Origin: a virus
Lineage: Duplodnaviria; Heunggongvirae; Uroviricota; Caudoviricetes
Virus record (IMG/VR): IMGVR_UViG_3300037313_000454
Location: 33,490 to 97,489 of that record
DNA: 64,000 bases
Direction: 5' to 3' (one strand)
This document shows, piece by piece, positions 6,270 to 57,948 of this stretch; positions within the stretch are counted from its first letter, which is position 1; the number at the start of each line of letters is the position of its first letter. The notes under the pieces were generated by a model. That model saw only the letters and a program-made list of their open reading frames with translations. It was not told where the DNA came from and did no database searches. Both the position numbers and the translations under genes were made by a program.

Positions 6270-6354
6270 AGATACTGTTAGCAAGAATTCCACGAAACAA
6301 TGGGGGTAGGTTCTGCACACTGTGCAACGACCGCCCCCGTCTGTTTGGAGATGA

Positions 6355-7491
6355 ATGACTGAACCGCTAAAACGTGAGGAGCTACTTCGCCGCCAGCTTG
6401 AAAAAGCCCGGATGGAGCTAGCTGACCAACGTTCTTTGAATAAGCGGCTGATGCGCAATCAAGGGGTAAGCTTCGAGCAAGTTATCGAAGAACTCCGTAA
6501 CTGTGCCAACAGCCCTGAACCGTTCCAGATTACTCCTGTCCCTGTAAGTAAACTCAAGGCGAAATCTATTCCCCCTGTGTCAGCGGGACACTCTGAAACG
6601 GCGACGTGTATTTTGTCAGATTGGCACACGTCAGAAGTAGTAAGAGAAGAGGAGTCAAACGGAATCAATGCGTATAACAGCATGATTCTATCCAATCGTG
6701 TTTGGGAGTTGGTGCAGACCATCAAACAGATTCTTGGACTCCATTTAACAATGTATAAGCTCGACAAGATATGGCTACCCATTCTTGGCGACATGATTAA
6801 CGGGTCTATCCACCCTGAGTTGGCCTTGACCAACGATTTGACCGACCCTGCGGCTACTGTCCTTGCCGCCCGTCTACTCCAAATGTTGATTGTAGAACTG
6901 AAGGTTCTCGGTCTACCCATTGAGATTGACTGCGTCGTCGGAAACCATCCCCGTCTCCTCGCAAAGATGCCTACCAAACGGCAGGCTCACCTATCCTTTG
7001 ACTGGATTGTGTACGAGATGTTGGCGGATATGTTCAAAGGTGACGACCAGATTAAAATTACCATCCACACCGGACAGCTTGGAATCGTGGAACAGTACGG
7101 TCACCGCTTTGTGGTTGAACACGGTATTGACGTGTCCAGCGGTAAAGAGGAGCAGATTGAAGACCGTCTCCGCGCCTTGTTTGATGACCCTGTCTATCGT
7201 AAGGCTACGGGCTTGAAAGGCTCGGCTTTCGACATGATTCTTCAGGGTAATATGCACAAGCCCAAGATGCTTGAGCGTACCATCATCAACGGTTGTCTCA
7301 CTGGACAGAACGAACTTGGCATGGGTTGGCGATTGAAGCCAATCAAATGCATCCAGCAAATGTTCGGTATCAGTGAAGGTCACGTTACTACGTGGCACTA
7401 CCCTGTGGATGTTACGTCCGTTAAGTCGGACAAAGCACAAAACCCCTTCAGCGATTATACGCGCTGGTATATGAAGCGTCACGGACGTTAA
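6355..7491 (+). CDS. putative calcineurin-like metallophosphoesterase
   Basis: Ordered motifs ILSDWH, ILGDMING, VVGNHPR and GHRFVVEHG resemble the MPP motifs DxH / GD / GNH / GH. N-terminal coiled coil. Confidence 0.45.
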   Translation: MTEPLKREELLRRQLEKARMELADQRSLNKRLMRNQGVSFEQVIEELRNCANSPEPFQITPVPVSKLKAKSIPPVSAGHSETATCILSDWHTSEVVREEESNGINAYNSMILSNRVWELVQTIKQILGLHLTMYKLDKIWLPILGDMINGSIHPELALTNDLTDPAATVLAARLLQMLIVELKVLGLPIEIDCVVGNHPRLLAKMPTKRQAHLSFDWIVYEMLADMFKGDDQIKITIHTGQLGIVEQYGHRFVVEHGIDVSSGKEEQIEDRLRALFDDPVYRKATGLKGSAFDMILQGNMHKPKMLERTIINGCLTGQNELGMGWRLKPIKCIQQMFGISEGHVTTWHYPVDVTSVKSDKAQNPFSDYTRWYMKRHGR

Positions 7492-7506
7492 GGACTTGAC
7501 AAATAA

Positions 7507-8190
7507 ATGAGTATAGTAGTCGGATTCGGGTATAAAGCCCGAAATGGCAAAGATACAGTTGTACAGACAATCATCGAGAAGTTCGGCAAAGACTACGACA
7601 TTCGTCGCTACGCCTTCGCTGACGCTCTTAAACGTGAAGCAAATTCGGCTGCCGCTCAGTGCGGTGGCTTTCCGCAGCTAATCGAATGGCTGCGTCGTGA
7701 AGTGGGACTGCCTGACTGGGTCGAGCTAGACACCAATCCAGACATGACTGACCCGCTATGTCCACTGGGTAAACACAGGAAGCTGTTGCAGTGGTGGGGT
7801 ACTGAATACCGCCGCTCCAAAGACCCGTACTACTGGGTGAAGCAGCTAGAGAAGACCATCAAGGAAGATAATCCGATGGTCGCTCTCATCTCCGACATGC
7901 GCTTTAAGAACGAGTTCTACTGGGTCAAGTCCTTCAAAGAAGAGGGCTGGACAGTGAAAGTCGAGCGTGTGGGATATGGTGCTGACAATAACAACGAACA
8001 TGCATCTGAGAAAGACCTTGACGGTATGCAGTTCGACGCGGTGATTTCTGCTGGGGATGGAGAAGTAGACCACCTGAAGCAGTGTGCCGTGGCGTTGTTT
8101 GAGAAACATATTAAGAAAGCATATGACGTTGACGAGTCGGAACTTGATTTCAGCGTCCCTATTGCAGAGGAGAAAAATGGCTCTAATTAA
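7507..8190 (+). CDS. deoxynucleoside monophosphate kinase-like P-loop protein
   Basis: N-terminal VGFGYKARNGKDT resembles the T4 gp1 P-loop GVKRSGKDT. WGTEYRR and ISDMRFKNE blocks follow. Confidence 0.5.
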   Translation: MSIVVGFGYKARNGKDTVVQTIIEKFGKDYDIRRYAFADALKREANSAAAQCGGFPQLIEWLRREVGLPDWVELDTNPDMTDPLCPLGKHRKLLQWWGTEYRRSKDPYYWVKQLEKTIKEDNPMVALISDMRFKNEFYWVKSFKEEGWTVKVERVGYGADNNNEHASEKDLDGMQFDAVISAGDGEVDHLKQCAVALFEKHIKKAYDVDESELDFSVPIAEEKNGSN

Positions 8191-8407
8191 GAAGTATACA
8201 GGTGACACCTTCCGTAACCTAATCCGTCAATACTCGTTCGACCGTATGGCATACGACCCTCAGTACCGTCGTGCTGTACGCAAGGCGAAGGCCGAGAAAA
8301 AGGCTGCGAGGGCAGCCAAGGTGTCAAATGAAAAAGCTAGCTCTCCTTCTAGCTCTACTAGTGGCGGGTTGTCACGCCAAGCCACAAACGAAACCCAAGC
8401 CTCGTAA
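8177..8407 (+). CDS. small basic hypothetical protein
   Basis: ATG at 8177 with RBS gaggagaaaa. In frame with the longer 8084 ORF. Lys/Arg-rich. Confidence 0.35.
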   Translation: MALIKKYTGDTFRNLIRQYSFDRMAYDPQYRRAVRKAKAEKKAARAAKVSNEKASSPSSSTSGGLSRQATNETQAS

Positions 8408-8972
8408 TCAAGCCGCCCTATCCTCTGTTCAGTTGGTTATGGAACGAGAGGACGGTAAAGAGGCTACGTGTACAGCCACTATAGTTGGTTCCCACGCACT
8501 TATCACAGCCCAGCACTGCACGGCTGTTATTACAGCGGATATCAAAGTATCGGTAGGGAATTATCCAATCACAGTGGATGAGATTATACCTCTTAAGTAT
8601 GACCAAGCTTTTATCCTTGAAAGCGGCGTAGAGTTCCCGGCGATGTACATAGCGCCGATGGACTTGAATAACATTCATCAAGAAGATGTCCTAAAGGGTT
8701 ATGGTAACCCTAAAGAACTTACGAGAATGTACCGACAAGGTGTGGTCATGGGGTTTGATACCAAAGACGGTGTTCCATGCGCCATCATAGACATGCATGT
8801 TGCTCCCGGTGATTCGGGAATGGGTCTGTTTAAAGATGGTAAGTTGGTAGCCGTAGTGAGTGGAGTACTAGGGTGGGATGAAACCCCCAGTTTGATTCCG
8901 GTGTACGTAGAACGAATCGACGCTACTCCTGAGCAGATTAAGAAAGTAACAACCTATGCCGGACGTAAGTAA
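8331..8972 (+). CDS. trypsin-like serine protease lipoprotein
   Basis: MKKLALLLALLVAGC has a lipobox. Catalytic triad context TAQHC ... D ... GDSGMGL. The track ORF 8271..8972 is in frame; the likely start is 8331. Confidence 0.7.
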   Translation, partial: KKLALLLALLVAGCHAKPQTKPKPRNQAALSSVQLVMEREDGKEATCTATIVGSHALITAQHCTAVITADIKVSVGNYPITVDEIIPLKYDQAFILESGVEFPAMYIAPMDLNNIHQEDVLKGYGNPKELTRMYRQGVVMGFDTKDGVPCAIIDMHVAPGDSGMGLFKDGKLVAVVSGVLGWDETPSLIPVYVERIDATPEQIKKVTTYAGRK

Positions 8973-9657
8973 TTATTTGAACGTGGTGCGCTCTGAGGCC
9001 GATAGCCTTAAAGCGCATCATGTTACCCTTAGCTGGTTTCGACTAGCTGAGATTGCCTTGTGCCTAGCGATTATCGGTGGAATGTACGTGCACAGTGTGC
9101 GTAAGGATGCCGAGAACCTAGGACGGTTCCAAGCCATGTTTGAAGAGTATCGGGCGGACTCAAAGAAGGCTGCCGAGGATATGAAGGCTAGTTTTGAACA
9201 GCGGCTTAAAGAAGCCGAGACTCGGAGTAAGACCGAGGTTGTTGTGGCGAACCGCACCAAGGACAACGATAAACATAAAGATGAAGTCCTGAACAATCAG
9301 GACAAGGTTCAAGCGCAGACTGACTTCTACGGGGCGTATAAGCGGTCGGTGGTCATCGTGCCGGAAGGCTTTACGATGGACTTGGACACGTTGAAACAAA
9401 CCATTGTAGCCAAACTGGACGCTGGTACTTTGAAGGCGAACTTCGAGGACACCCAGAAGAACTACGAGTCTGCCAAGGCATCTCTGGCTAGCGCCGAGAA
9501 AGACCTAGATACACAGAAAGGCTTGACCGCGCAGTGCGATGCTTCGCTTGCGCAGTTGAAGAAAGTAAAGACACCTTCCAAATTCAGAAAGGCATTGGGC
9601 GATGCTTTGAAGTTTGGACTGGGTGTACTTGTTGGAAAGGGCTTGGGGGCACTATAG
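8956..9657 (+). CDS. membrane-anchored coiled-coil protein
   Basis: TM segment WFRLAEIALCLAIIGGMYVH, then a long charged coiled-coil. C-terminal GLGVLVGKGLGAL. Confidence 0.5.
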   Translation: MPDVSNYLNVVRSEADSLKAHHVTLSWFRLAEIALCLAIIGGMYVHSVRKDAENLGRFQAMFEEYRADSKKAAEDMKASFEQRLKEAETRSKTEVVVANRTKDNDKHKDEVLNNQDKVQAQTDFYGAYKRSVVIVPEGFTMDLDTLKQTIVAKLDAGTLKANFEDTQKNYESAKASLASAEKDLDTQKGLTAQCDASLAQLKKVKTPSKFRKALGDALKFGLGVLVGKGLGAL

Positions 9658-9662: not shown

Positions 9663-9880
9663 TAGTCCAAAAGTGTCTTAAGGTTTCTGAACATTCTGTT
9701 CTTCGCCTCTCGAAACATCTCCCGCGCTATTGCCCTTCCTTTTTCAATCGAGTACTCCGTGAGTATCTCGGTGAACTGCTCTTTTTGTTCCGCTGACAAC
9801 CCCTTCCCGAACGTCTTTATTTTCTCCGTCAATTCAGGACTAGGCTGCACCATGTGCAGAATTATCAGTTCGTGCTTCAT
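9662..9880 (-). CDS. hypothetical protein
   Basis: 72-aa ORF. First gene of the long minus-strand block, read convergently. Confidence 0.45.
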   Translation of the reverse strand: MKHELIILHMVQPSPELTEKIKTFGKGLSAEQKEQFTEILTEYSIEKGRAIAREMFREAKNRMFRNLKTLLD

Positions 9881-10115
9881 CGGCCTGCTCCTGTTCGTAG
9901 GCTAGCTTTTCAGCGATGTCCCGCAGAACAAACGCCGCACGTTCTTGTTGAGCGCGTAGTTTACTATGTTCGTCACGGATGGGCTTTGCCTTGCGGTTGT
10001 GCGCGGCTAAAGCCCCCATAGACTCCTTGTTAGCTACGTAGTAGTCAACGCGTCTACGTGCCGCTGTTGCGTAATTACGAGCAGCAACCAATACCTCTTC
10101 TTCAAGCGGCTTCAT
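9840..10115 (-). CDS. hypothetical protein
   Basis: 91-aa ORF in the minus-strand series. Confidence 0.4.
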   Translation of the reverse strand: MKPLEEEVLVAARNYATAARRRVDYYVANKESMGALAAHNRKAKPIRDEHSKLRAQQERAAFVLRDIAEKLAYEQEQADEARTDNSAHGAA

Positions 10116-15812: not shown

Positions 15813-16290
15813 TCTCAGCCCACACCGTCGGCAAGCCGCCGTGCGAGTAAAGTAGATTAGCCTCGTTCAAAGTAAGGCCCATAGTAAGTTCTACGTGCGG
15901 ATAGTCCTTAAGAGACTTCCAGAAACCACCCCAGTCCAGCCCTACCATCTTGGCAAAGTCGCCAATACGTAGGTAGTCTGCGGTGTTTGACCAGTCCCAT
16001 TGGACACCCACTTTATCAGGGTCGCCGTCTTCGACGAGGTCAACGGCCAATCCAAAATTATGCCATGATTGTCCACCCCTAGCATTCGTAACGCGATTGC
16101 CCGGTGTAGTACGTCCTTTAGCATAAAGTGCGTCCTGTTCTTCTATGGTGCGCAGTCCCATGAAGGCTGCGAAGTATAGGCCATTAGCTGCTAACAGCTT
16201 GATTAGTGCGTTCGTCTTCAGGCGTACCGTCGGATGAACTTGTGCCAGTGCTTTCTGACTGGCTATCAGCATTTCTGATTCGCTGCTCAT
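15793..16290 (-). CDS. endolysin, peptidase M15 (L-Ala-D-Glu peptidase / VanY-like)
   Basis: Zn-binding motifs SWHNFGLAVDL and DYPHVE. Confidence 0.75.
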   Translation of the reverse strand: MSSESEMLIASQKALAQVHPTVRLKTNALIKLLAANGLYFAAFMGLRTIEEQDALYAKGRTTPGNRVTNARGGQSWHNFGLAVDLVEDGDPDKVGVQWDWSNTADYLRIGDFAKMVGLDWGGFWKSLKDYPHVELTMGLTLNEANLLYSHGGLPTVWAEIDKRIA

Positions 16291-16732
16291 TTAGCTTGTT
16301 CTGCAATTCCTCAAATTCTTCAGCGGTGTAACTTGGCTTCTTGCGGCTGTATCCGGCATAGCGGACATACTTACCCAAACGACTCGGCTTCTGCTTCTTA
16401 GGGCGGTTAGCCTTGTCCCTGCACGGTGTGCAGAGGAAACGCTTATAGTTCGGGTCAGGATTAAACTCCTCACCATTTATGCCGACCGACACCATGACTT
16501 GCTTATGCTCTGCGAACATGTAGCACTCGGCACACTTCTGTTGGAAAACCTTATCGCCAACCGTATATCCGAATTCACTCTCGTCCATCGGAACATACTC
16601 AAACCGCTGAACTGACCACGCGCCTGTACCCTTGAACGCAGGGAATACAACCTTGGCTTGGTCTTTAAGCTGCTGAGTTTCCTCGGGGGTTGAGCCTAAT
16701 AGTTCTGAGATAGGTACTGACGCTGGTTGCAT
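16184..16732 (-). CDS. hypothetical protein
   Basis: 182 aa. TAAATG coupling with the upstream small ORF. Overlaps the endolysin start by about 107 nt. Confidence 0.45.
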   Translation of the reverse strand: MQPASVPISELLGSTPEETQQLKDQAKVVFPAFKGTGAWSVQRFEYVPMDESEFGYTVGDKVFQQKCAECYMFAEHKQVMVSVGINGEEFNPDPNYKRFLCTPCRDKANRPKKQKPSRLGKYVRYAGYSRKKPSYTAEEFEELQNKLNEQRIRNADSQSESTGTSSSDGTPEDERTNQAVSS

Positions 16733-20532: not shown

Positions 20533-21099
20533 TTATGCTCTTGCTCCATATAGCTGCTTGAACCTCAGCAAGAAGTTCTGTTCAGCTACGTAAGGTGACC
20601 ACGGTTTAATGTGGAATGAGTAAGGTTCTACACCCATGCGCTCGACCATAAGCTTTAGAATCTCAGGGTCACCGGGACGAAGGTCGCGCTGCTCAGTGCA
20701 GAGCATACGATTGTCCGCTTCCTTAACGCTGGGATGCATCTCCAAAGGTAAGCCGTATTTCATGTTGATGACATTCTGCACGTTCTCTTCAATCTCGCGG
20801 TAGCCTGACATGGCGGTGCAATACTTGAGGGGACGGGGAATGTCAACAATGTAAGCTTCTGAGGCGTCATGCATAAGAAACTCAAACGCATATTCCTCAG
20901 GAACTTCAAAGCTGCCACGGACACTGTGTTCCGCAACGCTATAGAAGTCTCGTAAGTGTCCCGCGAAACGACAACCCAATGACAGTGCATGGGCTATGTC
21001 CTCGATACAGATATCCTCTGGGCGAGGGTCTAGCGGGTAGAACCGTTTGCACGTATACGTTGAGTAAAACGAGCCACGGTCTTGTGGTGTAACTATCAT
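20533..21099 (-). CDS. HD-domain phosphohydrolase
   Basis: H...HD motifs [13 protein letters not shown] and [10 protein letters not shown]. Confidence 0.55.
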
Positions 21100-21521
21100 C
21101 GTAAGTCTTTTGGACGTAGGTACTTAGCGATGGGGTACATACCCCGTGCCTTGAACGCTAGTCCCATCTTTTCCTGAACTGTATGTTTCAGTTTATTAAA
21201 TTTATTGTCCGGCGATTTGTCTTCCAGTAGCCCGATAATCTCTGCGTCTTTCTGTAGATATACCAGCTTGAAGAACCGATGTTCTTCTTTGGTGAGGACA
21301 CGACGGGCCGCTAGTTCAAGGTCGCAGATGAAGTCTGACGGTGTGGCACGGACAACGCGGGGATTGAACTTACCGCCGTTGGTGCCTTCCCTTGATAGTG
21401 CCTTGTAGAATCCCTCACATGAATTAGTCCCGTGTGACGATTTAAGCTCGTCATAGTAGGACATTACTTTACGAAAGACTGAACGCCAGAACTCTTTTTT
21501 ATTGCGTCTGGGCTGTTCCAT
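21096..21521 (-). CDS. hypothetical protein
   Basis: 141-aa ORF. Confidence 0.45.
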   Translation of the reverse strand: MEQPRRNKKEFWRSVFRKVMSYYDELKSSHGTNSCEGFYKALSREGTNGGKFNPRVVRATPSDFICDLELAARRVLTKEEHRFFKLVYLQKDAEIIGLLEDKSPDNKFNKLKHTVQEKMGLAFKARGMYPIAKYLRPKDLR

Positions 21522-22742: not shown

Positions 22743-23004
22743 CTACTTCTACTAAGAATCTAGGCTGAACGAATACGGCGTATTTGATGTTCTTACCTTC
22801 CTCAATACCGAACAGTGTGCAGCGAACACCTTTTCTGGTGTACTGCTCTCGGGCGTACTTCATCAAGGCTTCGATGCCTTCCTTGCGGAACTCCCATACT
22901 GTCGCTCGATTCTCTTCTCGAATCGGTATACCGTCTACAATCTCTCCCCAGACCCCTGTCTTAATTCCCTGCCTGTCGGCCCAACTCTTACGTCTAGGGA
23001 GCAT
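22729..23004 (-). CDS. hypothetical protein
   Basis: 91-aa ORF. Confidence 0.4.
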   Translation of the reverse strand: MLPRRKSWADRQGIKTGVWGEIVDGIPIREENRATVWEFRKEGIEALMKYAREQYTRKGVRCTLFGIEEGKNIKYAVFVQPRFLVEVDEDE

Positions 23005-29660: not shown

Positions 29661-30371
29661 CTACTCCGCGTCGATGATTGCGTAACTGTCTTCTTGTTGT
29701 TCTCGAATCTGCATCTTGGCTTCATCTAGAAACATCGGGGCGATTACGTCGGCCAACAGTGTGCCGTCGGTCGCCTCTCGAACTTCTCCATCAGGCAGGA
29801 CGACTTGACCGTAGAGCATCCGCGCCATCTCTAGCGCGTTAGCAATCATCTCAGCTTGGGTGTCCGTGACACGGAAGTTACACCAGCGAGTGGCTTCAAG
29901 TCCCCCTTTCTGGCGAATTTCGTTGACACGGGTGCGAACCTTATCCAGCGTCATGTCCGCAGACTGTGCAACCAATTCTTTGATTTGTTCAGCATTTACT
30001 GCTGGGTCAAGGGCAAAGATTTCCTTGAGCTTAGATAGCTTAGAGGCTTGGAGTAGGTCGCGGTCGATACCTAACGCTCGGCTATTGTCTACGATTTTGA
30101 CGAGGTAGTAGGCTTGCCGCTCCGACATGTCCAGCCCGGATGATTCCAGCCACTCACCGAATGACTGGAAACCAAGCAGTTCTGGGTACGAGTTCGCACG
30201 GGCTTCGGACAATAGCTCTCCCAGATAGAGCATATTGTCCACCAGTGACGACTTGATGCGCTTGATTTCGTTGGTGACTTCTGATGCGCGTTCTTTACTA
30301 ATCGTTAAGGCAGTGGTCATTTCCAATTCCGTCCAGTTGGAACGCATGAAAGGCTGTAAATACCGTTCCAA
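29661..30371 (-). CDS. hypothetical protein (possible regulator)
   Basis: 236 aa, helical, no catalytic motifs seen. Confidence 0.45.
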   Translation of the reverse strand: MERYLQPFMRSNWTELEMTTALTISKERASEVTNEIKRIKSSLVDNMLYLGELLSEARANSYPELLGFQSFGEWLESSGLDMSERQAYYLVKIVDNSRALGIDRDLLQASKLSKLKEIFALDPAVNAEQIKELVAQSADMTLDKVRTRVNEIRQKGGLEATRWCNFRVTDTQAEMIANALEMARMLYGQVVLPDGEVREATDGTLLADVIAPMFLDEAKMQIREQQEDSYAIIDAE

Positions 30372-34686: not shown

Positions 34687-35628
34687 TTAACCATTGCTAG
34701 CCTGAGTATCAGCCCGTTCGTTCTGTAATACACGTTCTAAGGCATCCCATTCAACAAACTCGTCATACACACTTGGTACGGGGTTTGGAGCCGGAGTGGG
34801 TGCTGGAATAGTTTCTGTATCAAATACATAACGGTACGTTGTATTACCGTTGACACGACGAACAGGTATAGCACGGGGCGTTGCGTGTATATTTACGTTT
34901 GCCCAATTACTGACTTCATTACTGACCTCAACTACTCTTTTCTTCGCCTTGCTAATTTTACCTACACAGTTGAGACAAGTTTGTTTCATCCGTTTGATAC
35001 ATTGCGGGGCGAAGCAGCGATGTACTTGTCTGCACCGTGTGCAGAGATGGTGATGGTGGTGTACCCCTGTGGTATAATCATAAGAATCCCAAGCACTTAA
35101 ACACTGTACTTTAATATACTTATATAAAATACCGTCGAACCTAGAAGGCACTGTATTCCAGTTAATCGTCGCTGGTCTGTAGGTGTGGTCGTAAACCTGT
35201 ACTTGGATAACTGATTCATTTGCAGACAGCGGTGAACCTAGCCATGAGAGGTCAGAAAGCATAGTCGCCATTCGACCATCCCGCATGATGTAATGCTCTG
35301 CGACTTGTCCTTCCTGATAACCTTTGGCCTGTACTTTATACACGACTGCATTATAGGGACGGTCAGGGTTCTCCACTACAAACCGCAGCCAATCGACACT
35401 GGTAGGTATATCTTTTATGTCGTCAACGAAAAACTCTCTGATATAGTATGCTCCGTTACGAATAGCAGACGGCCCTTCATGTGACCAATCGCTGAACAGG
35501 TCGTAATAGGCGTCCGGGAAGTGCTTGTGAAACCACCGCTGATTAACACTCTTTACCACCCACGGATGTCCGCAGAGATATGAGTTCTCACTGATGTCGA
35601 AAATGAGTGGCCGCTGATGTGATGGCAT
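34687..35628 (-). CDS. hypothetical protein with His5 run and Cys-rich segment
   Basis: 313 aa. Contains ...GVHHHHHLCTRCRQVHRCFAPQCIKRMKQTCLNC... Confidence 0.5.
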   Translation of the reverse strand: MPSHQRPLIFDISENSYLCGHPWVVKSVNQRWFHKHFPDAYYDLFSDWSHEGPSAIRNGAYYIREFFVDDIKDIPTSVDWLRFVVENPDRPYNAVVYKVQAKGYQEGQVAEHYIMRDGRMATMLSDLSWLGSPLSANESVIQVQVYDHTYRPATINWNTVPSRFDGILYKYIKVQCLSAWDSYDYTTGVHHHHHLCTRCRQVHRCFAPQCIKRMKQTCLNCVGKISKAKKRVVEVSNEVSNWANVNIHATPRAIPVRRVNGNTTYRYVFDTETIPAPTPAPNPVPSVYDEFVEWDALERVLQNERADTQASNG

Positions 35629-39439: not shown

Positions 39440-39990
39440 TTAATTTTTCCTACGCGGGGACTTTTCTGCACATTGTGCAGTCTTACCATCGAGTTTACGT
39501 ATGATTCGACGCACTTCGTTTCTGAATAAGTGCATGTCACCATCTTTACCGCCGAATCGCCAGAACGTCTTTGTGATTGCGTCTACTGCTTCAGAAGCGC
39601 TCATACAAATCCTTAAAAAATAGGTGGGATAGCCTCATCATCGCCGCTGCGTATTCGCCGGGAACTGGACAGGTTCTTTTAGAAGCTTCCGGTTACTGAG
39701 GCAACTCGATTCTGCTGGACTTATTGCCATTGCCAGACAATCAGCTAGATGAACGATTTGACACTGTCCATGCTTCTCGTAACTAGCTACCCCACCATCT
39801 AGGGTAAAAACTCTTTATACTTCTTCTCTACAAGCCGCTTGGAAGTAGCTTATAAAGTACCAGAGAACTTGTTTAGCAATAAATCGACATTGACTACAAT
39901 CTTTGAATTTTTCAGGCCGAATAGGACAAGCCTTATTGCAGTCATGGATTATGATTGTTAGCCTATCTAGAATTTTATCTTTCATAAACT

Positions 39991-40370
39991 TTGGGGTGAC
40001 AGACGGGGCTTGAACCCGTAACCATCTGTGTCACTTTGTTGTGCACACTGTGCGGGGGTATTGTCCGCCCAGTCTGAATAACAAATGGTAAGGACTTACG
40101 TATTGCCTTACCGCAGTGCTTTACCTCGACTCGCCATAGTAGTAGACGGAATTCTAGCTGGCCAATGCTGCATCACCGGACGCTAACAGTGAACTTCAGG
40201 GAGTGGTTTGAATCTGTTTGCCAAACAATGGGCCGCGTCCTTGACCTACTACTAACTAGTGTCACGGGGCCTTGCACCCCCGCCGACTGCATTTTCAAAG
40301 GTCTTCGCCAGTATACACCTAATTACGCGGTAATGCACCACTCGATGTAAACTGATTAAGCTACTGTCAC
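39991..40370 (-). ncRNA. tRNA-like-bracketed structured RNA (Y-RNA-like family), about 380 nt, CCA encoded
   Basis: 5' GTGACAG at 40364-40370 pairs perfectly with the 3' CTGTCAC that follows T-arm ACGGG-TTCAAGC-CCCGT. Discriminator C and CCA are at 39991-39993, followed by AAGTTTATG. Confidence 0.45.
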
Positions 40371-40378
40371 CATAAACT

Positions 40379-43345: not shown

Positions 43346-43354
43346 GACCGTTCC

Positions 43355-45396: not shown

Positions 45397-45408
45397 AATT
45401 GTTCGTCC

Positions 45409-48603: not shown

Positions 48604-49491
48604 CTAAGCGATGTGCTTAAAGTTTTCCCAACGGGGTTTCATGTCTTCGTCGAGACGGGGCGCGAACTTCTCAAGCGTCTCCATCTTGTCGTTCTTGAGG
48701 ATGCGCTTGGCCACCACAGCCGCGTCGAAATCGACGTTCTGGTAAGCCCGGAAGAACTTGACCAGCTTTTGGAACTTAGCTTCCTTCGTTCCCCGCAGCG
48801 GCAGCATCGTCTTGGCGAAGCCGGGATTCAACGCCGCCAACTTGGTCGCCGTGAGCATAATCATGGCGTTGTGCGGGTCAAACAACCAACTGCACGGTGT
48901 GCGGTACTCGGTGCGGTAGAAATGCGTTCCGTCCGCACTTTGCGTCTGTGTGTTTGCAATCGCCGTAGCGCCGAACTGACCGTAACCAGCCGGGTCAGTA
49001 CGCCGTCTGTCAGATTCTTCGCCGGGAAGCAAGTCGATGCTTTCCATGACTTCCGTGATGCGGTCACAGGCGTTCAGCCGCTCATCGAACACCTTGTCGG
49101 GGACACCATGCTTGCCTTTGAACGGCAGTTCCAGATGGATGTGGCCACCAATGGACATGTGACGTGGCGACCGAGAATATTCATCTTCCACCGGGGCGTT
49201 GGTATGTGTCACGACAGACGTGTACGGCACAAACGCTCCACTACGCCAGCGGAACTTACGGAACGGGCGTCCGGTCGGGCTTTCAAGGATGTCCTTGAGT
49301 TCATTGACGATGTCGGACGTGAAGTAACTGGCTGGGGGACGAAGCTCCACGCAATAGCCGCCGTGGTCTGCCCCGAAGCCCGATGAATTCACGTTACCGA
49401 CGGTGATGAGAGTGGTCGGGTTCTGCGGGTCTACCACGCAGAATTCCGGGTCACAACCCACTTTAAACGGGTTGACGTGCATTTTTTGCAT
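48604..49491 (-). CDS. amidoligase-like protein (glutamine-synthetase fold)
   Basis: VGCDPEF, GYCVELRP and GGHIHLELP blocks. Paralogous to the C-terminus of 45409..47076. Confidence 0.4.
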   Translation of the reverse strand: MQKMHVNPFKVGCDPEFCVVDPQNPTTLITVGNVNSSGFGADHGGYCVELRPPASYFTSDIVNELKDILESPTGRPFRKFRWRSGAFVPYTSVVTHTNAPVEDEYSRSPRHMSIGGHIHLELPFKGKHGVPDKVFDERLNACDRITEVMESIDLLPGEESDRRRTDPAGYGQFGATAIANTQTQSADGTHFYRTEYRTPCSWLFDPHNAMIMLTATKLAALNPGFAKTMLPLRGTKEAKFQKLVKFFRAYQNVDFDAAVVAKRILKNDKMETLEKFAPRLDEDMKPRWENFKHIA

Positions 49492-51694: not shown

Positions 51695-51901
51695 TTAACC
51701 GGGGTAGACGCAATTTATCGCCACAGTGTGTAAGACATCTTTGCCAAAATACTCGTCTTGGCGTGTGACTTCGACTTCGATGCAGTCAACCTTTGTTAGA
51801 ATCTCTTCAACAAGAGCCATTAGCTGTTTTTTAGCCGCTTCATGCTGTTGCTTTCTGCGTTCATCGTCACCGCCGCAGAAGTCATAACTGTCATAAGTCA
51901 T
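51695..51901 (-). CDS. hypothetical protein
   Basis: 68-aa ORF. Confidence 0.35.
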   Translation of the reverse strand: MTYDSYDFCGGDDERRKQQHEAAKKQLMALVEEILTKVDCIEVEVTRQDEYFGKDVLHTVAINCVYPG

Positions 51902-52791
51902 GCGTAGAACTCCAAGTGTACGTCCGCTATCAGCTTCGATATAGCGGCACGGTCTACTTTTTCAGGTAGGGAAGATTTGTCACGGGCTTTCTCAGCCTCA
52001 GCGCGGATTTGCTCACCCATTTCCTGTAGCTCGGTCAGCTTGTACTTACCGCGCCGAATATCTTTTAACACTTCGACTTCAGGCCGGGGATAGGTGATTC
52101 GTCCATCTTCCATCAACTCTTTCGCCTCAGACAGCAGCCGGATGATGTGCATGGCATACTTGGTATCGTAGCCATACAAATCAACGAGCTTATCGCGGTT
52201 GATATTCTTCTGTCCCCTGAGTCCCATGAGGCGTTCCATCTGGTCTTGGGCGTAATAGATGAACGGCCAGTAATGGGACTTGGCAAGGAAAATCAATGTA
52301 TTGTCGAGAATACGTTGCCATGGTTCCAGTACAAGTTTTTCTTCGCCGTCACCGTCACATACAGTACAAGGTTCAACATCATAGGATGTTTCGCCAGCAC
52401 CGTAACAACGGTAGCAAATATCGTTATGCTCTTTTGTGTACTGGAACTCTAAGGTGGAAAACAGGAAGCTGAGGACGGTGGGATTGCCCTTAGCCACCAT
52501 ACCAGCCCACTTCTGCAAACTGTGCAGGGCAATGTCTACTTCGCCCGGTTCGCGTTCACCACGACTACGTTTGGTAGTGTCGCCGGGATAGACGAAATGC
52601 TCGAACGCGTCGATGCCCAGCGTCTTCTCTTTGGGTGGGATGAAGATACCGTAGTAATCGGTGTCGCTCTGACCGCCACAATCATCAGCCCGTGCCCCAT
52701 GTTGCGTGGAGCCGCCGATAAAGGCCATGATGAGATTGTCAGGGTAAGGAAAGCCGTGTTTGGCTAGGATTTCTTGAATGGACATATTCAC
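51898..52791 (-). CDS. Pol-beta-superfamily nucleotidyltransferase
   Basis: GGSTQHGARADDCGGQSDTDYYGIF is the hG[GS]...D.D nucleotidyltransferase signature. C-terminal Cys cluster. Confidence 0.5.
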   Translation of the reverse strand: MNMSIQEILAKHGFPYPDNLIMAFIGGSTQHGARADDCGGQSDTDYYGIFIPPKEKTLGIDAFEHFVYPGDTTKRSRGEREPGEVDIALHSLQKWAGMVAKGNPTVLSFLFSTLEFQYTKEHNDICYRCYGAGETSYDVEPCTVCDGDGEEKLVLEPWQRILDNTLIFLAKSHYWPFIYYAQDQMERLMGLRGQKNINRDKLVDLYGYDTKYAMHIIRLLSEAKELMEDGRITYPRPEVEVLKDIRRGKYKLTELQEMGEQIRAEAEKARDKSSLPEKVDRAAISKLIADVHLEFYA

Positions 52792-53651: not shown

Positions 53652-54553
53652 AGAACTCCTGTTAGCTCTACTTTACAGCTTATGGGATTATTGCCGACGG
53701 GAACAGGCGAAAACGGATATTTTCGTGTGCTACCGTTACACTAACGCCCTACCGATTAGGCAGGACGTATGGGAGTCGAACCCATACCACGTCATCCAGA
53801 GTGAAGTAACCGTTCTCTTCACCACGTCAGCAAACTTTAAGGGCGGGAACAGGCGACAAGGCTCTTTTTGCCGATTGCTCTACCAGACTGAGCTATCTCC
53901 CTCACATTCTTAGGGAGAGTGGGATTCGAACCCACGACCCATCGTTCCGATTGAAGTATTCCTTATCTACACCACGCCCAAACTTTAAGTGAAGGGAACA
54001 TTTGGTAACAGGTATGCCGTGTCCTTTGGCGATTCTTTACCCCTTGCGGGGCGGGGACGGACTCATACCCTTCGCATGTAAGAAGTAACTGTTACACATC
54101 ACCACTTCACAAACTTATGCGTGACCCCGTTATTCAGGCAATCAAAGCCCGATTAAAATGCCAGCACCAAGCCTTTCGACAAGGGGGAGGCCAACATGCG
54201 TTATGGGTTCTAGGGACGATTACTCTCCATACATCGTCACCAAAGGTCACGCTTGGCAGGGCAAGTCATAAGCTTCCTATCCCTGCAAACTTAGCTTAGG
54301 AGAACAAGCGACACGGCACGTTTATTCACCAATTGAAGAAGTATCCGTATCTTTCACTACCTAAGCAGAATTTACTCGGGGCACTCGGATTCAGTTGAGT
54401 CTGAGCTAGGTGAGGTTACGGATTAGCCTAGCTTTTGTAGCTCTTGCACCACCGTAACGATACGGCAAGAGACGTACTTACAGAGTAACTGTCGTCTCGA
54501 ACGCTTTTACACTAGCCCCGAACTTTGAAGTCCCGCAGTGTATCCAGTTGCGC
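53652..54553 (-). ncRNA. tandem array of Y-RNA-like tRNA-mimic modules (at least 4 units)
   Basis: 900-nt ORF-free region. Units are delimited by (T)TAAAGTTTG at about 53831, 53979, 54110 and 54286. Two units carry T-arm (GTGGG-TTCGAAT-CCCAC; ATGGG-TTCGACT-CCCAT) plus 3' acceptor strand, then 8-10 nt, then the complementary 5' acceptor strand plus D-arm (AGGGAGA-TA-GCTC-AGTCTGGTA-GAGC; AGGGCGT-TA-GTGT-AACGGTA-GCAC). Unit ends pair with each other. Confidence 0.5.
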
Positions 54554-54999: not shown

Positions 55000-56355
55000 T
55001 TAATCTTCGTTCTCAGTGGCCAGAATGAAGTCTACCACAGCTTCAGACCATCCGTCCACATGCTTCCATTTGCCGTAACCGACGCCATTCTGATAGGCAG
55101 CCACGTTGATAACGTAGCCCTTGTCGGTCAACGGGTTGGACAACGCCTGATGCGACTGCTCATCCGTGAGGATGATAAGGCGGTCATAGCCTTCCTTGTC
55201 CGCAACCAGCTTGGCGCGTTCGGTATACGTACCACCACCGAACTGACGCATGATAGCGTCACGCAAGGCAAATCCACGCCGTGCCGGAACCAGCTTGGCA
55301 TCGTTGGCGAACGTGTACACAACCACGCTCTCGCAAATCTCTCGGAGCAGGATAGCCAATCCGTTCGCAGCGTCGATACGGCTCAACTCCGACTTACTGG
55401 AGATAGCCGAAGTCATCGAACCCGATACGTCAATGAGCAGCACCGTCTTGCCCTTGAGTTTAGGGGCATCGGCCACACACTTGAACATGGCCTCTTCCAA
55501 GTACGGCTCAAACTTGGGTGCATACTTTGCAGCCGAGATGAACCGGAACGGCAACACACGCTCGGTGTTCATGGACTGCAAGCCATCGACAATGACGCGC
55601 TCCTCAACGCCCGACTGAATCATGTTCCGCAGGTTACGGAGCATGGCCAGCGCACCCAGCTTCTTCTCTTGGATGAGGCGAGTGAACGTAGCAGCTTTGT
55701 CTGCACCAGCGGACAGGGCGACTTCCCATGTATCCGGCGACGTAAGTGTGTTCTCGGCCAACATCTTGTACGTCTCGATGCATGGCGCGGTATCTCCGAC
55801 TTCCGGCCCCCAACCCGGAGTACGCTTTTCTTTGCGCGGGTCAGGATGCGTCAAGAACATAACGTCCCGCAGCTTCACAGCCCCATCACGGTTGTACTTG
55901 GCAAGGCTGTAGCGGTTGAACTTGTAGAACGCCCGTGCCAAGCCCTTCTTCACCTGTGCCGAAAGAGGCTGACGGCCATCCTTCCAATAGATGGCAAGGA
56001 ACTCGGTCAGTTCATCGGGACGCTGAATGATGCGCTCCAACGTGTCTGCTACCAACAGACGGGCTTCTTTGCTCCCCCGCGCCAATTCACGGGCAAGGAA
56101 CAGCGGTACGTGACGCAGCTTGAACTTCTCACGCGCCTCTACCGCGACATTAGCCACATCTTGGGGCTTGTTGTTCTTGATAGCCTCAGCCAGCACTTGG
56201 GCGTGGCTTTGGCCGTCGATGTAGAAGCTGTCTTCCCACAGAAGGCAGCACATCACCAACCGACGAAGCTGTTGGAGCGGGTTGATTCGCTTGGCCACCG
56301 CACCCTCATAGGTGCGCGGAGCAGCCGTAGCGATACGTTTATTCAGGGTCGCCAT
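55000..56355 (-). CDS. rsr: Ro60/Rsr ortholog (TROVE domain + von Willebrand A domain)
   Basis: TROVE-like blocks LRRLVMCCLLWEDSFY, PLFLARELA and MLRNLRNMIQSGV. vWA MIDAS motif LLIDVSGSM. 451 aa. Encoded just upstream of the tRNA-mimic RNA array. Confidence 0.7.
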   Translation of the reverse strand: MATLNKRIATAAPRTYEGAVAKRINPLQQLRRLVMCCLLWEDSFYIDGQSHAQVLAEAIKNNKPQDVANVAVEAREKFKLRHVPLFLARELARGSKEARLLVADTLERIIQRPDELTEFLAIYWKDGRQPLSAQVKKGLARAFYKFNRYSLAKYNRDGAVKLRDVMFLTHPDPRKEKRTPGWGPEVGDTAPCIETYKMLAENTLTSPDTWEVALSAGADKAATFTRLIQEKKLGALAMLRNLRNMIQSGVEERVIVDGLQSMNTERVLPFRFISAAKYAPKFEPYLEEAMFKCVADAPKLKGKTVLLIDVSGSMTSAISSKSELSRIDAANGLAILLREICESVVVYTFANDAKLVPARRGFALRDAIMRQFGGGTYTERAKLVADKEGYDRLIILTDEQSHQALSNPLTDKGYVINVAAYQNGVGYGKWKHVDGWSEAVVDFILATENED

Positions 56356-56660: not shown

Positions 56661-56835
56661 CAGACTTACTACACTCTTCCATGGTCATGTGGAAGTTGCC
56701 CTTAGCCCCCTGCTCACACTTTTTACATACATCGGTGAATGGCTCAAGGGCATCGTCAACTTCTTTGAGCATCCCGTTTATCTGCATTTTCAAACGCAGA
56801 AGGAAGTCGAGTGAAGCGTGTTGTTCGTCGGTCAT
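56593..56835 (-). CDS. hypothetical protein
   Basis: 80 aa. Overlaps the 56412 ORF. Only one of the two may be real. Confidence 0.3.
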   Translation of the reverse strand: MTDEQHASLDFLLRLKMQINGMLKEVDDALEPFTDVCKKCEQGAKGNFHMTMEECSKSGGAGFSCKAPQDHHKFEPAYER

Positions 56836-56836
56836 A

Positions 56837-57091
56837 CTACTCCTTCAAAATTACGATAGGTTCAGGGAATGGGCAGCCATCCACGGTCATGACGATTCCC
56901 CTATCAGGCACTACACGCGGGGCCATCTTGCCTGTGCATTTTACCGCGCGGCCATCTTCGCGCCAGTACCACTTCCACTTCTTTTTGGGGGCGGTTTGAA
57001 CCTTGACCACATAGCGTAGCTCGACAGGCTTACGCTCCGGCAATAACTGTGGCTTACCGATGGACATGAACAAGGCAAGGGTTAGAATCAT
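56837..57091 (-). CDS. hypothetical protein
   Basis: 84-aa ORF. Confidence 0.4.
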   Translation of the reverse strand: MILTLALFMSIGKPQLLPERKPVELRYVVKVQTAPKKKWKWYWREDGRAVKCTGKMAPRVVPDRGIVMTVDGCPFPEPIVILKE

Positions 57092-57549
57092 TCTTTTGTC
57101 CTGAACTTAGCGGCCAGACTACGCTCTTTGTCTTCGACTTCGGCGCGATTGGGGGTAGCCACGGGTTTCCATTCCCAGTATTCCCTTAAACCGGGCGTCT
57201 GAATCCACTTTTTCCATTCGATGGGAAGTATACAGTTTGACGGCGCGAACATGAAGAAAGGTGCAATATAAGGGTCTTTGTACCCCGCTAAACCACACCC
57301 AATCCGACTGACCTTGAACCGATACCGTGGCTTAGACTCCGCATAGTCGAGGAACACATGGATGTGATGACGGATTCTGTCCAAAGACATGGTTTTGATA
57401 TTCATGTCCTTGGTGGGAATAGCGTAGGCTGAACCAGTACGCCCGATACCCTCACCCATCACGGCATGGCAGTTCTCATGCGCCCATTTCGCCGCACCTG
57501 CACCGTGGATACCTGCGAGATTGCTACCGAATACGAAGATTTCACTCAT
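57088..57549 (-). CDS. hypothetical protein
   Basis: 153 aa starting MSEIFVFGSNLAGIHGAGAA. Confidence 0.5.
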   Translation of the reverse strand: MSEIFVFGSNLAGIHGAGAAKWAHENCHAVMGEGIGRTGSAYAIPTKDMNIKTMSLDRIRHHIHVFLDYAESKPRYRFKVSRIGCGLAGYKDPYIAPFFMFAPSNCILPIEWKKWIQTPGLREYWEWKPVATPNRAEVEDKERSLAAKFRTKE

Positions 57550-57749
57550 TAAAGTTCTCCAATACCAAACGGGTTTGACTCCCGATACCGTTCCACTTGG
57601 CTGAAGGCATCATTTGCCATGCGGAAGATTTGCTGAATTTCTGGCATGAAATGACCACCCGCCATCACCGTGGCCATGAAATTAGCCACAAAGGTTGCGA
57701 TAAAGTCTTCTCGGTTCATAAGAGTCCTGCGGTCGTTCGATTCTTGCAC
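57549..57749 (-). CDS. hypothetical protein
   Basis: The track start is GTG. An internal ATG at 57719 lies immediately downstream of the 13-bp palindrome. Confidence 0.35.
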   Translation of the reverse strand: MQESNDRRTLMNREDFIATFVANFMATVMAGGHFMPEIQQIFRMANDAFSQVERYRESNPFGIGEL

Positions 57750-57948
57750 ACTGTGCGGGTTGCTTCTCCGGTTACATCGTTTTCACGGGTGAGTGTGGAA
57801 GCAATCGCGGGTAATGTACACCGCATACACTCAGCCGTAGCTATGTCGCTGGTTTGTCTCTTGAACACGCCGAGCAAATGACCACGCATCTCAGCTTGTT
57901 CACGGGCTTTGTTCTGTACAAACGCCAAATTGTAGGGCAAGGGGTCAC

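What the first reader, a model, noticed from the sequence alone, without database searches (positions are those of the whole stretch)
6314..57757. 13-bp palindrome TGCACAYTGTGC(R) present four times
TGCACACTGTGCA is at 6314-6326. That is in the 5' UTR between the 6241 promoter and the 6355 ATG, flanked by GGGGG...CCCCC. TGCACATTGTGCA is at 39468-39480, in the intergenic region upstream of 39439. TGCACACTGTGCG is at 40042-40054, inside the 380-nt tRNA-like RNA. TGCACACTGTGCG is at 57745-57757, at the start of gene 57549..57749. Expected count of any given 12-mer in this window is about 0.004. The perfect dyad symmetry suggests an operator for a dimeric DNA-binding protein, or a structured RNA hairpin recognised post-transcriptionally.
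Basis: seen in the sequence. Interest (0 to 1): 0.55.

Follow-up and report, generated by a model that had tools for sequence, protein, structure and literature searches.

The report
Dispersed palindromic operator in soil phages
The four-copy palindrome is real and is the tip of a larger family: a 15-17 bp perfect palindrome, (A)CTGCACA-S-TGTGCAG(T), scattered a dozen times through this phage and kept in related phages and mobile elements of Acidobacteriota, most likely the docking site of an unidentified dimeric DNA-binding regulator placed just in front of genes.

Summary
A fifth copy at 9089 was missed. The real unit is CTGCACA-N-TGTGCAG. The window has 12 sites with at most 2 mismatches (0.1 expected).

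The same word recurs in relatives:
- Tunturiibacter phage Tunturi_4: 19 sites (0.4 expected). Ten of 20 listed sites are intergenic, against 12% non-coding DNA.
- A related metagenomic phage, L173: 14 sites in 20 kb, mostly in stop-motif-Shine-Dalgarno-ATG junctions.
- Acidobacteriota integrative elements: tandem pairs beside Cro-like or Xis-like genes.

Two other Tunturiibacter phages lack it, so it is lineage-specific, not a general host feature.

Across 61 sites oriented by transcription, the two halves degenerate equally. The central base shows no strand preference. Wobble-compatible changes are not favoured. This fits a two-fold symmetric DNA site bound by a homodimer better than an RNA hairpin.

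Best reading: a dispersed operator or roadblock site, like mycobacteriophage stoperators, phiC31 CIRs or RK2 KorB operators. The binder is not identified. An RNA role remains possible, because two sites cap long hairpins.

The parts
6313..6327 (.). Site 1, CTGCACACTGTGCAA. It lies in the 5' UTR, about 38 nt downstream of the expected start of the 6241-6269 promoter, and ends 28 nt before ATG 6355 (exonuclease). It sits at the apex of a long hairpin.
6241..6269 (+). Perfect sigma-70-type promoter, TTGACA-17-TGnTATAAT. It drives the transcript that carries site 1.
6295..6346 (+). Extended stem-loop with site 1 at its tip; the paired bases run 6293-6348 in the fold of 6290-6350. Folding energy -29.3 kcal/mol, z = -3.9. 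The Shine-Dalgarno GGAG follows directly.
9088..9102 (.). Fifth copy of the 13-mer, TGCACAGTGTGCG, inside ORF 8956-9657 (+).
9845..9859 (.). CTGCACCATGTGCAG (1 mismatch). It lies where the + and - gene blocks converge and overlaps the last codons of ORF 9840-10115 (-).
16419..16433 (.). CTGCACGGTGTGCAG (1 mismatch) inside the 182-aa gene 16184-16732 (-). It encodes the conserved peptide LCTPCRD. The homologous site in relative L087 is a perfect 15-mer at the end of a shorter gene, 35 nt before the next ATG.
22808..22822 (.). CCGAACAGTGTGCAG (2 mismatches) inside ORF 22729-23004 (-).
35030..35044 (.). CTGCACCGTGTGCAG (1 mismatch) inside ORF 34687-35628 (-). It encodes CTRC.
39466..39480 (.). 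Site 2, CTGCACATTGTGCAG, the only perfect 15-mer in the window. It ends 27 nt before ATG 39439 (- strand gene 39203-39439).
40041..40055 (.). Site 3, GTGCACACTGTGCGG, in the ORF-poor region 39211-40636. It lies about 25 nt upstream (- strand) of a tRNA-like T-arm and acceptor module.
48890..48904 (.). CTGCACGGTGTGCGG (2 mismatches) inside ORF 48604-49491 (-).
52513..52527 (.). CTGCAAACTGTGCAG (1 mismatch) inside the RlaP-family gene 51898-52791 (-).
57744..57758 (.). Site 4, TTGCACACTGTGCGG. It is intergenic, 25 nt upstream of ATG 57719 of the 56-aa gene 57549-57719 (-), with the Shine-Dalgarno AGGA in between.
58945..58959 (.). CTGCAAGTTGTGCAG (2 mismatches), within a called 50-aa gene.
62047..62061 (.). 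CCGCACACTATGCAG (2 mismatches). It is intergenic, about 33 nt after the stop of the 104-aa gene 62094-62408 (-).
29661..30320 (-). Candidate binder (weak): a 219-aa protein, homologue of Tunturi_4 ORF50. Its fold hits to ParB/KorB/Spo0J HTH domains are weak. In Tunturi_4 and L173 a perfect motif lies 17 and 10 nt upstream of this gene.
21096..21521 (-). Candidate binder (weak): 'family X', 141 aa. The fold resembles sigma region 4, phage 21 Q and AlpA. In integrative elements L146, L151 and L167 this gene lies 500-700 nt upstream of tandem motif arrays.

Best explanation
The palindrome is the core of a 15-17 bp two-fold symmetric DNA site, (A)CTGCACA-S-TGTGCAG(T).

Inferred from the symmetry: a homodimeric sequence-specific DNA-binding protein, encoded by this phage lineage, recognises it.

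Shown:
- The sites are scattered through the genome.
- The best-conserved ones sit in the short gaps between a stop codon and the next ribosome-binding site, or in a 5' UTR.

Inferred: a bound dimer would block initiating or elongating host RNA polymerase just in front of individual genes. Dispersed operators of this kind are known as mycobacteriophage stoperators, phiC31 CIR sites and RK2 KorB operators.

Also shown: in related integrative elements the same word forms tandem pairs in the control regions of Cro-like and Xis-like genes, the classical operator layout.

Not shown: the direction of regulation (silencing in lysogeny, or a temporal switch) and the identity of the protein.
For: Enrichment:
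- Window: 12 sites within 2 mismatches against 0.1 expected.
- TGCA-N5-TGCA: 15 against 0.77. No enrichment at other spacings.

Conservation of the sequence itself in phages only about 43% identical in protein:
- Tunturi_4: 19 sites against 0.4 expected, 7 of them perfect 15-mers.
- L173: 14 in 20.6 kb. L174: 8. L172: 4.

Placement:
- 10 of 20 Tunturi_4 sites are intergenic, against 12% non-coding DNA (p = 3e-5).
- Seven sites (six intergenic, one overlapping the end of ORF94) lie 10-25 nt before an annotated start codon.
- L173 shows eight stop-motif-SD-ATG junctions.
- Window sites 1, 2 and 4 end 28, 27 and 25 nt before an ATG.

Symmetry test on 61 sites oriented by transcription:
- Mismatches: 34 in the 5' half against 38 in the 3' half (p = 0.72).
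- Central base: C 25, G 27.
- The per-position mismatch profile is roughly mirror-symmetric.
- Wobble-compatible transitions number 11, incompatible ones 15.

Tandem pairs at 21-33 bp spacing next to HTH genes:
- L019, L120 and L135: Cro-like genes.
- L139 and L007: HTH_17 genes.
- L014: HTH_3 gene.

Lineage specificity:
- All of Tunturi_3 (97.6 kb) has one weak site and 50 kb of Tunturi_1 has none, although both infect the same host genus.

Transcription:
- The phage uses host sigma-70 promoters of a strong consensus, so the motif is not needed as a promoter.
Against: - No binding protein is identified. The two candidates conserved with the motif (ORF50-like and family X) also occur in Tunturi_3, L161 and L162, which have few or no sites.
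- The HTH_3 family that lies beside sites in Tunturi_4 and L014 was not found in the window or in the 6.9 kb beyond it.
- Site 1 and Tunturi_4 site 64743 sit at the tip of long hairpins whose outer arms differ in sequence (-29 to -30 kcal/mol, z = -3.9 and -4.9). A plain DNA operator does not need that.
- In L173, 7 of 8 intergenic copies share one orientation, CTGCACACTGTGCA with a 3' A or G.
- About half of the window's sites are inside genes. Several coincide with CxxC codons, so not every copy need be functional.
- Unrelated elements (Cro-like, Xis-like, phage) share the word without any common regulator gene that I could detect.
Confidence: 0.5

Rival explanations
1. RNA-level element. 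Once transcribed, the motif forms a 6-bp stem with a 3-nt loop (CUGCAC-ASU-GUGCAG) just 5' of the Shine-Dalgarno sequence. A sequence-specific RNA-binding protein or endoribonuclease recognises it, or it acts as a stabilising 5' hairpin after processing. Either way it sets the translation or stability of individual cistrons in long operons.
For: - Regular stop-motif-SD-ATG placement in L173, Tunturi_4 and the window.
- The hairpin forms in the local fold of most sites tested (all but site 3; site 4 with a 4-bp stem).
- Site 1 and Tunturi_4 site 64743 extend it into long, significantly stable stems with unrelated outer arms.
- Window site 3 and three Tunturi_4 sites lie in non-coding RNA-rich regions.
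- L173 intergenic copies show an orientation bias of 7 to 1.
Against: - Across 61 oriented sites there is no strand asymmetry. Changes that keep G-U pairing are not preferred over those that make C-A mismatches: 11 against 15.
- The dyad symmetry runs through positions that would be loop bases (A6 and T8).
- The sequence, rather than just the pairing, is conserved between distant phages.
- Site 3 does not form the hairpin in the minimum-energy fold.
- Tandem arrays at 2-3 helical turns sit in divergent control regions.
Confidence: 0.22
2. Binding site of a host (Acidobacteriota) protein. Many unrelated mobile elements have acquired it, which plugs them into one host regulatory circuit, for example a stress or SOS-like repressor.
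For: - The same 15-17 bp word occurs in elements that share no detectable regulator: phages, Cro-type prophage fragments and integrase/Xis elements.
- 8 of 27 genomic stretches with tandem pairs come from Acidobacteriota genomes, spanning several families.
Against: - Two other phages of the same host genus lack it: Tunturi_3 (whole genome) and Tunturi_1 (50 kb).
- All of the acidobacterial tandem hits whose neighbourhood could be interpreted lie in mobile-element contexts, not upstream of chromosomal genes. The search for tandem pairs biases this result.
- From memory only: the LexA box reported for Acidobacterium capsulatum is GTTC-N7-GTTC, which is different.
Confidence: 0.12
3. Centromere or global-regulator site of a ParB/KorB-type protein, the ORF50-like protein at 29661-30320. 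This would be the equivalent of parS, or of the 12 KorB operators (TTTAGCSGCTAAA) of plasmid RK2.
For: - It is a 13-bp palindrome with central S in a dozen or more dispersed copies, like the KorB operators (that comparison is from general knowledge).
- One homologue is named 'ParB-like and HNH nuclease domain' by its source.
- Tunturi_4 and L173 have a perfect site 17 and 10 nt upstream of this gene.
Against: - The fold scores are weak and are mixed with generic three-helix bundles. There is no Pfam ParBc match.
- The family is present in Tunturi_3, L161 and L162, which have no or few sites.
- The window homologue has no site upstream.
Confidence: 0.1
4. Not a functional element. The copies are by-products of coding sequence (TGC-ACA-NNN-TGC = Cys-Thr-x-Cys) plus chance.
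For: - Five TGCA-N5-TGCA sites encode CxxC in frame.
- Site 16420 overlies a peptide, LCTxCRD, that is conserved in L087.
Against: - In-gene copies fall in all three frames.
- The best copies are non-coding.
- Enrichment is more than 100-fold.
- The word is conserved and preferentially intergenic in relatives.
Confidence: 0.02

Closest known systems
Stoperators of cluster A mycobacteriophages (L5 gp71 and the TipsytheTRex repressor; PMC9283540)
   Same: - More than twenty copies of a 13-bp site spread over the whole phage genome.
- Found both at promoters and in short intergenic spaces inside operons.
- Proposed to stop transcription initiation and elongation by host RNA polymerase.
   Different: - Stoperators are asymmetric, are bound by a monomer with two DNA-binding domains, and work in one orientation relative to transcription (PMC9283540).
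- This site is a perfect palindrome with no orientation bias.
- No related repressor was found.
- The host phylum is Acidobacteriota, not Actinobacteria.
Conserved inverted repeats (CIRs) of Streptomyces phage phiC31, bound by the c repressor (from general knowledge, not checked in a paper here)
   Same: A roughly 17-bp inverted repeat in about 18 dispersed copies, mostly intergenic in early operons, bound by the phage repressor.
   Different: - The sequence and the host differ.
- No repressor has been identified here.
- Sites here also occur in the structural (late) module of Tunturi_4.
KorB operators (OB, TTTAGCSGCTAAA) of IncP plasmid RK2, and ParB-parS (from general knowledge; structures 1r71 and 8qa8 appeared as weak fold hits)
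   Same: - A 13-bp perfect palindrome with a central C or G in about a dozen dispersed copies.
- A candidate protein in the phage (29661-30320) has weak fold similarity to KorB/ParB DNA-binding domains.
   Different: - There is no ParB N-terminal domain match by sequence.
- The candidate family does not co-vary with the motif.
- There is no evidence for action at a distance or for partition.
Lambda-type tandem operators next to cro/cI
   Same: In related elements L019, L120, L135 and L014, two copies 21-33 bp apart sit directly upstream of, or around, small HTH genes.
   Different: In the window itself there is no tandem pair and no adjacent HTH gene. The sites are single and dispersed.
Lambda O-type origin iterons
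   Same: A sister word, GTGCACASTGTGCAC, occurs as 2-4 tandem copies at 22-45 bp spacing inside HTH_36 Rep-like genes (L130, L147, L152, L144, L127, L134). This is the ori-within-the-initiator-gene layout.
   Different: The flanking bases differ (G...C rather than C...G). No such Rep gene or tandem array exists in the window or in Tunturi_4.

Membership tests
Stoperator system (cluster A mycobacteriophages) | Many copies of one short site dispersed over the genome | tested here: met
   Sites within 2 mismatches: window 12, Tunturi_4 19, and L173 14 in 20 kb.
Stoperator system (cluster A mycobacteriophages) | Sites preferentially in short intergenic spaces within operons | tested here: met
   Tunturi_4: 10 of 20 sites intergenic against 12% non-coding DNA, p = 3e-5. 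L173: eight stop-motif-SD-ATG junctions.
Stoperator system (cluster A mycobacteriophages) | Asymmetric site whose orientation follows the direction of transcription | tested here: not met
   The site is a perfect palindrome. Across 61 oriented sites there is no half-site or centre-base bias.
Stoperator system (cluster A mycobacteriophages) | Bound by the immunity repressor; blocks elongation | not testable with these tools
   No binder has been identified. This needs EMSA, footprinting and reporter assays.
ParB-parS / KorB-OB | Palindromic 13-16 bp site in multiple copies | tested here: met
ParB-parS / KorB-OB | A ParB/KorB-family protein encoded by the element | tested here: inconclusive
ParB-parS / KorB-OB | Protein and site co-occur | tested here: not met
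   The protein family is present in Tunturi_3, L161 and L162, which have no or few sites.
Lambda-type operator region | Two or three adjacent sites in the control region of a repressor or cro gene | tested here: not met
   Not met in the window: only single sites, and no HTH gene adjacent. Met in related elements L019, L120, L135 and L014.
Structured RNA element (conserved hairpin) | Base pairing maintained by compensatory or wobble-compatible changes on the transcribed strand | tested here: not met
   Wobble-compatible transitions 11, incompatible 15. The mismatch profile is symmetric.
Intrinsic terminator | G+C-rich hairpin followed by a U tract on the transcribed strand | tested here: not met
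   No terminator-like call at sites 1-3. At site 4 the call is on the antisense strand only. The flanks lack T runs.
N4-type hairpin promoter for a virion RNA polymerase | 5-7 bp stem with a 3-nt loop, limited to a few early promoters, plus a giant virion RNA polymerase | tested here: not met
   The geometry fits. However, sites number 12-19 and occur in all modules. The largest protein (1708 aa) matches tail or structural proteins. Host-type promoters abound. The N4 features are from general knowledge.
Host LexA (SOS) box | Site upstream of host lexA, recA and repair genes; matches the host clade's LexA motif | not tested
   No further genome-contig scan was available to examine host chromosomes. 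Other phages of the same host genus lack the site.
Lambda O-type origin iterons | Three or more tandem copies inside or next to an initiator gene | tested here: not met
   None in the window and no HTH_36 Rep homologue. Seen only for the sister word in other elements.

The most novel reading that the evidence does not exclude
The 17-bp word ACTGCACASTGTGCAGT may be a shared regulatory 'password' of Acidobacteriota mobile elements. One as yet unknown protein, either host-encoded or carried by some of the elements, would read it in phages, prophage fragments and integrase/Xis islands that share no other regulator. That would couple their silencing and induction: cross-immunity, or helper-satellite style cross-talk, across unrelated elements.
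Probability: 0.12. Interest if true: 0.75.

Novelty: new member of a known kind. Interest (0 to 1): 0.5.

Why it matters
Almost nothing is known about gene regulation in phages of Acidobacteriota, a dominant soil phylum. The only paper describing cultured isolates (PMC11924767) mentions no promoters, motifs or palindromes. The motif sequence itself gives no hit in the searchable literature.

A high-information, easily recognised site marks dozens of gene junctions in one cultured phage, Tunturi_4, in this uncultured relative, and in integrative elements of several acidobacterial families. That gives three things:
- A concrete handle for finding the regulator, for example by DNA-affinity pull-down from Tunturi_4 infections or lysogens.
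- A sequence tag for recognising related mobile elements in soil metagenomes.
- A possible palindromic, dimer-bound counterpart of the monomeric stoperator mechanism.

If the site turns out instead to be read as RNA, it would be an unusually uniform intercistronic signal.

Tried and rejected
- **Near-identical DNA in the phage collection:** none found.
- **Exact 15-mer scan of viral contigs:** It was useful only after filtering for contigs with several copies.
- **Pfam scans of 20 window ORFs for HTH proteins:** nothing apart from the DksA/TraR zinc finger.
- **Cro-like protein of L019/L120/L135:** no homologue in the window or Tunturi_4.
- **HTH_36 Rep family:** no homologue in the window or Tunturi_4.
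- **HTH_3 family of Tunturi_4 ORF104/105:** no homologue found, including a further viral-contig scan.
- **ORF50-like protein as the binder:** same outcome.
- **Cro/CI-type HTH just beyond the window end (homologue of Tunturi_4 ORF97):** no site near either gene.
- **Promoter reading:** rejected. The palindrome would fire both ways, several sites leave no room before the Shine-Dalgarno sequence, and strong host-type promoters exist.
- **Sigma-54 promoter:** rejected by spacing. GC to GC is 9 nt here, not 11 (by inspection; the consensus is from general knowledge).
- **Restriction-site reading:** the motif contains BsgI, PstI-like and ApaLI-like half words. Rejected because such sites are normally depleted in phages, not enriched (inference).
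- **Orientation asymmetry seen in the window alone (5' half intact in 7 of 7):** it disappeared when 61 sites from seven phages were pooled.
- **Literature:** a search for the motif sequence and for an acidobacterial LexA motif gave nothing usable.

Full report
**1. The observation**

TGCACAYTGTGC occurs four times in the window, at 6314, 39467, 40042 and 57745. None of 100 dinucleotide-preserving shuffles gave a match.

A fifth copy with central G (9089-9101) was missed.

The four copies belong to a larger family:
- GCAC-N3-GTGC occurs 10 times and never with spacers of 0, 1, 2 or 4.
- TGCA-N5-TGCA is the most over-represented spaced palindrome in the window, 15 against 0.77 expected.
- CTGCA-N5-TGCAG occurs 7 times against 0.05 expected.
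- Measured against the consensus CTGCACANTGTGCAG, the window has 1, 6 and 12 sites within 0, 1 and 2 mismatches. About 0.1 sites within 2 mismatches are expected.

**2. Genomic setting**

The window is from a tailed phage.
- Genes run on the + strand to about 9.7 kb (tail proteins, exonuclease). After that they run on the - strand (replication, nucleotide metabolism, many small ORFs).
- The nearest cultured relative is Tunturiibacter phage Tunturi_4, an 88-kb siphovirus of an acidobacterium. Its primase-helicase is 43% identical, and about 17 genes are shared in the same order.
- The window is 100% identical to part of a Logan contig and to JGI soil contigs.
- The phage carries strong host-type promoters of consensus TTGACAAA-N9-TTtnTGnTATAAT at 6241 (+) and at 56415, 41355, 38245, 33684, 23320 and 17242 (-).

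**3. Where the sites are in the window**

- Site 1 lies about 38 nt downstream of the expected start of the perfect promoter at 6241-6269. It ends 28 nt before the exonuclease ATG.
- Site 2 ends 27 nt before ATG 39439.
- Site 4 is intergenic, 25 nt before ATG 57719, with an AGGA ribosome-binding site in between.
- Site 3 is in a 1.4-kb ORF-poor stretch with tRNA-like modules.
- 62047 is intergenic, and 9845 sits at the junction of the converging gene blocks.
- The remaining sites are inside genes, in all three reading frames. Five of the TGCA-N5-TGCA sites encode CxxC.
- Site 16420 overlies the conserved peptide LCTxCRD. In relative L087 the homologous site is a perfect 15-mer at the end of a shorter gene, 35 nt before the next start.

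**4. Relatives**

- *Tunturi_4:* the identical word occurs 19 times within 2 mismatches (0.4 expected), 7 of them perfect. Ten of 20 listed sites are intergenic, against 12% non-coding DNA (p = 3e-5). Seven sites, six of them intergenic, lie 10-25 nt before an annotated start. Three lie in a 2.4-kb unannotated, repeat-rich gap. The aligned sites give (A)CTGCACASTGTGCAG(T).
- *L173, an 82.7-kb metagenomic relative:* 14 sites in 20.6 kb. Eight lie in stop-motif-Shine-Dalgarno-ATG junctions.
- *L174 and L172:* 8 and 4 sites.
- *L161, L162 and L163, also related:* 2, 0 and 0 sites.
- *Tunturi_3 (whole genome) and Tunturi_1 (50 kb):* at chance level, although they infect the same host genus.

The word is therefore a trait of one phage lineage, not of all phages of that host.

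**5. Beyond phages**

A search for two copies within 8-38 bp gave 27 genomic stretches, 8 of them from Acidobacteriota MAGs of several families. It also gave 7 viral contigs. Two classes emerge.

*Class O*, with the same C...G flanks as in the window, forms pairs 21-50 bp apart in three settings:
- directly upstream of small Cro-like genes (L019, L120, L135);
- upstream of HTH_17 Xis-like genes next to integrases (L139, L007);
- around an HTH_3 gene homologous to Tunturi_4 ORF104/105 (L014).

*Class R*, GTGCACASTGTGCAC, forms 2-4 tandem copies inside HTH_36 Rep-like genes. This is a lambda O-like origin layout and a different system. It has no counterpart in the window.

**6. DNA or RNA?**

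As RNA, the motif folds into a 6-bp stem with a 3-nt loop. Site 1 and Tunturi_4 site 64743 extend it into long hairpins with unrelated outer arms (-29.3 and -29.9 kcal/mol; z = -3.9 and -4.9). The other sites form only the small hairpin. Site 3 does not form it in the minimum-energy fold.

I pooled 61 sites within 2 mismatches from seven phage sequences and oriented each by the local direction of transcription:
- Mismatches are equally frequent in the 5' and 3' halves, 34 against 38.
- The central base is C 25 times and G 27 times.
- The per-position mismatch profile is roughly mirror-symmetric.
- Transitions that would keep a G-U pair in the transcript (11) are no more frequent than those that would make a C-A mismatch (15).

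The constraint is therefore two-fold symmetric and independent of strand. That is what a homodimer on duplex DNA predicts, and not what selection on RNA pairing predicts.

Tandem pairs beside HTH genes point the same way. The long hairpins, and an orientation bias among L173 intergenic copies (7 to 1), keep the RNA reading alive.

**7. Who binds?**

Not resolved.
- Pfam finds no HTH protein among 20 window ORFs.
- Both families also occur in Tunturi_3, L161 and L162, which lack the motif. Neither is therefore a specific predictor.
- A Cro/CI-type HTH gene lies just beyond the window end and is homologous to Tunturi_4 ORF97. It has no site nearby.
- The window covers about two thirds of a genome of at least 97 kb. 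The regulator may lie outside it.

**8. Comparison with known systems**

By function and layout the closest are:
- the stoperators of cluster A mycobacteriophages: more than 20 dispersed 13-bp sites in promoters and short intergenic spaces that stop initiation and elongation (PMC9283540);
- the conserved inverted repeats of phiC31;
- the 12 palindromic KorB operators of RK2.

The last two comparisons are from general knowledge.

It is not a member of the stoperator family, whose defining asymmetry and orientation dependence are not met here. Membership of the ParB/KorB family is unproven.

It is not an intrinsic terminator, because there is no U tract. It is not an N4-type hairpin promoter or a sigma-54 promoter.

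**9. Verdict**

This is a real, strongly non-random, evolutionarily conserved cis-element. It is most likely a dispersed palindromic operator for an unidentified dimeric regulator of this acidobacterial phage lineage (confidence about 0.5). An RNA-level intercistronic signal is the main rival.

It is a new member of a known kind of system, in a host phylum where phage regulation is unexplored.

Noticed in passing
window 55000-56355 (-) and 53873-53943 (-): The phage encodes a Ro60-type TROVE protein (Pfam PF05731 on the called gene). About 1 kb downstream lies a YrlA-like, tRNA-mimicking Y RNA (Rfam RF02553, 41 bits, E = 3e-7, below the gathering score). A second, weaker YrlA match is at 53694-53813. 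An RlaP-family gene (51898-52791) is nearby. Together these look like a phage-borne Ro/Y-RNA module.
   Followed up: partly
window 39211-40636 (- strand): A 1.4-kb ORF-poor region downstream of the DksA-like gene holds two tRNA-like 3' modules. The first is a 75-nt acceptor plus T-arm mini-RNA ending in ACCA (40379-40453; weak match to the tmRNA tRNA-like domain, E = 0.002). The second is a T-arm plus acceptor ending in CCA at about 39993-40030, whose 5' partner GGTGACAG lies 380 nt upstream. ARAGORN calls neither. The 389-nt fold is not more stable than shuffles (z = -0.8).
   Followed up: partly
window 6241, 17242, 23320, 33684, 38245, 41355, 56415: Seven promoters share an unusually long consensus, TTGACAAA-N9-TTtnTGnTATAAT (extended -10). 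An eighth perfect match at 34609 (+) points antisense to the surrounding genes.
   Followed up: partly
window 41514-47076 (-): A cluster of a RimK-like ATP-grasp enzyme, a glutamine amidotransferase-like protein (43813-45396) and an amidoligase-like protein (45409-47076). The combination resembles phage DNA base hypermodification clusters (the resemblance is from general knowledge).
   Followed up: no
L130, L147, L152, L144, L127, L134, L008: A sister palindrome, GTGCACASTGTGCAC, occurs as 2-4 tandem copies (22-45 bp apart) inside genes for HTH_36 (PF13730) Rep-like proteins. There it also encodes repeated peptides such as VVHSVHQGSAQCAP. The layout resembles the lambda O gene with ori iterons inside it. 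The elements come from several phyla.
   Followed up: partly
Tunturi_4 record 64452-66825 (L003 14452-16825): A 2.4-kb unannotated gap holds eight tandem copies of ACACACAGAC, many GACGACGT and CTAGGTGTG repeats, several TTGACA promoters and three copies of the palindrome. It may be an origin or control region. ARAGORN also reports a permuted tmRNA-like gene at record 43441-43975, next to the palindrome at 43008.
   Followed up: no
L131/L136 (Ilyomonas MAG), L128/L132/L137/L141/L145/L149 (Atopobiaceae MAG), L124/L129/L140/L142 (Acidimicrobiia): Unrelated genomes carry the 13-mer core in highly repeated units: an 883-bp tandem repeat in Ilyomonas, and multi-copy dispersed repeats in the other two. 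These are probably different repeat families that happen to contain the word.
   Followed up: no
L173 19161 and L174 19026: The palindrome sits at the same position in the N-terminal coding region of the RecA/UvsX-like gene of two related phages, encoding KAAQ(C/S)AV. In-gene copies can therefore persist at homologous codons.
   Followed up: no
window 6327-6334 and 57729-57736: The octamer ACGACCGC follows site 1 directly and follows site 4 after 8 nt, read in the direction of transcription. No other site shares it, so it may be coincidence.
   Followed up: no
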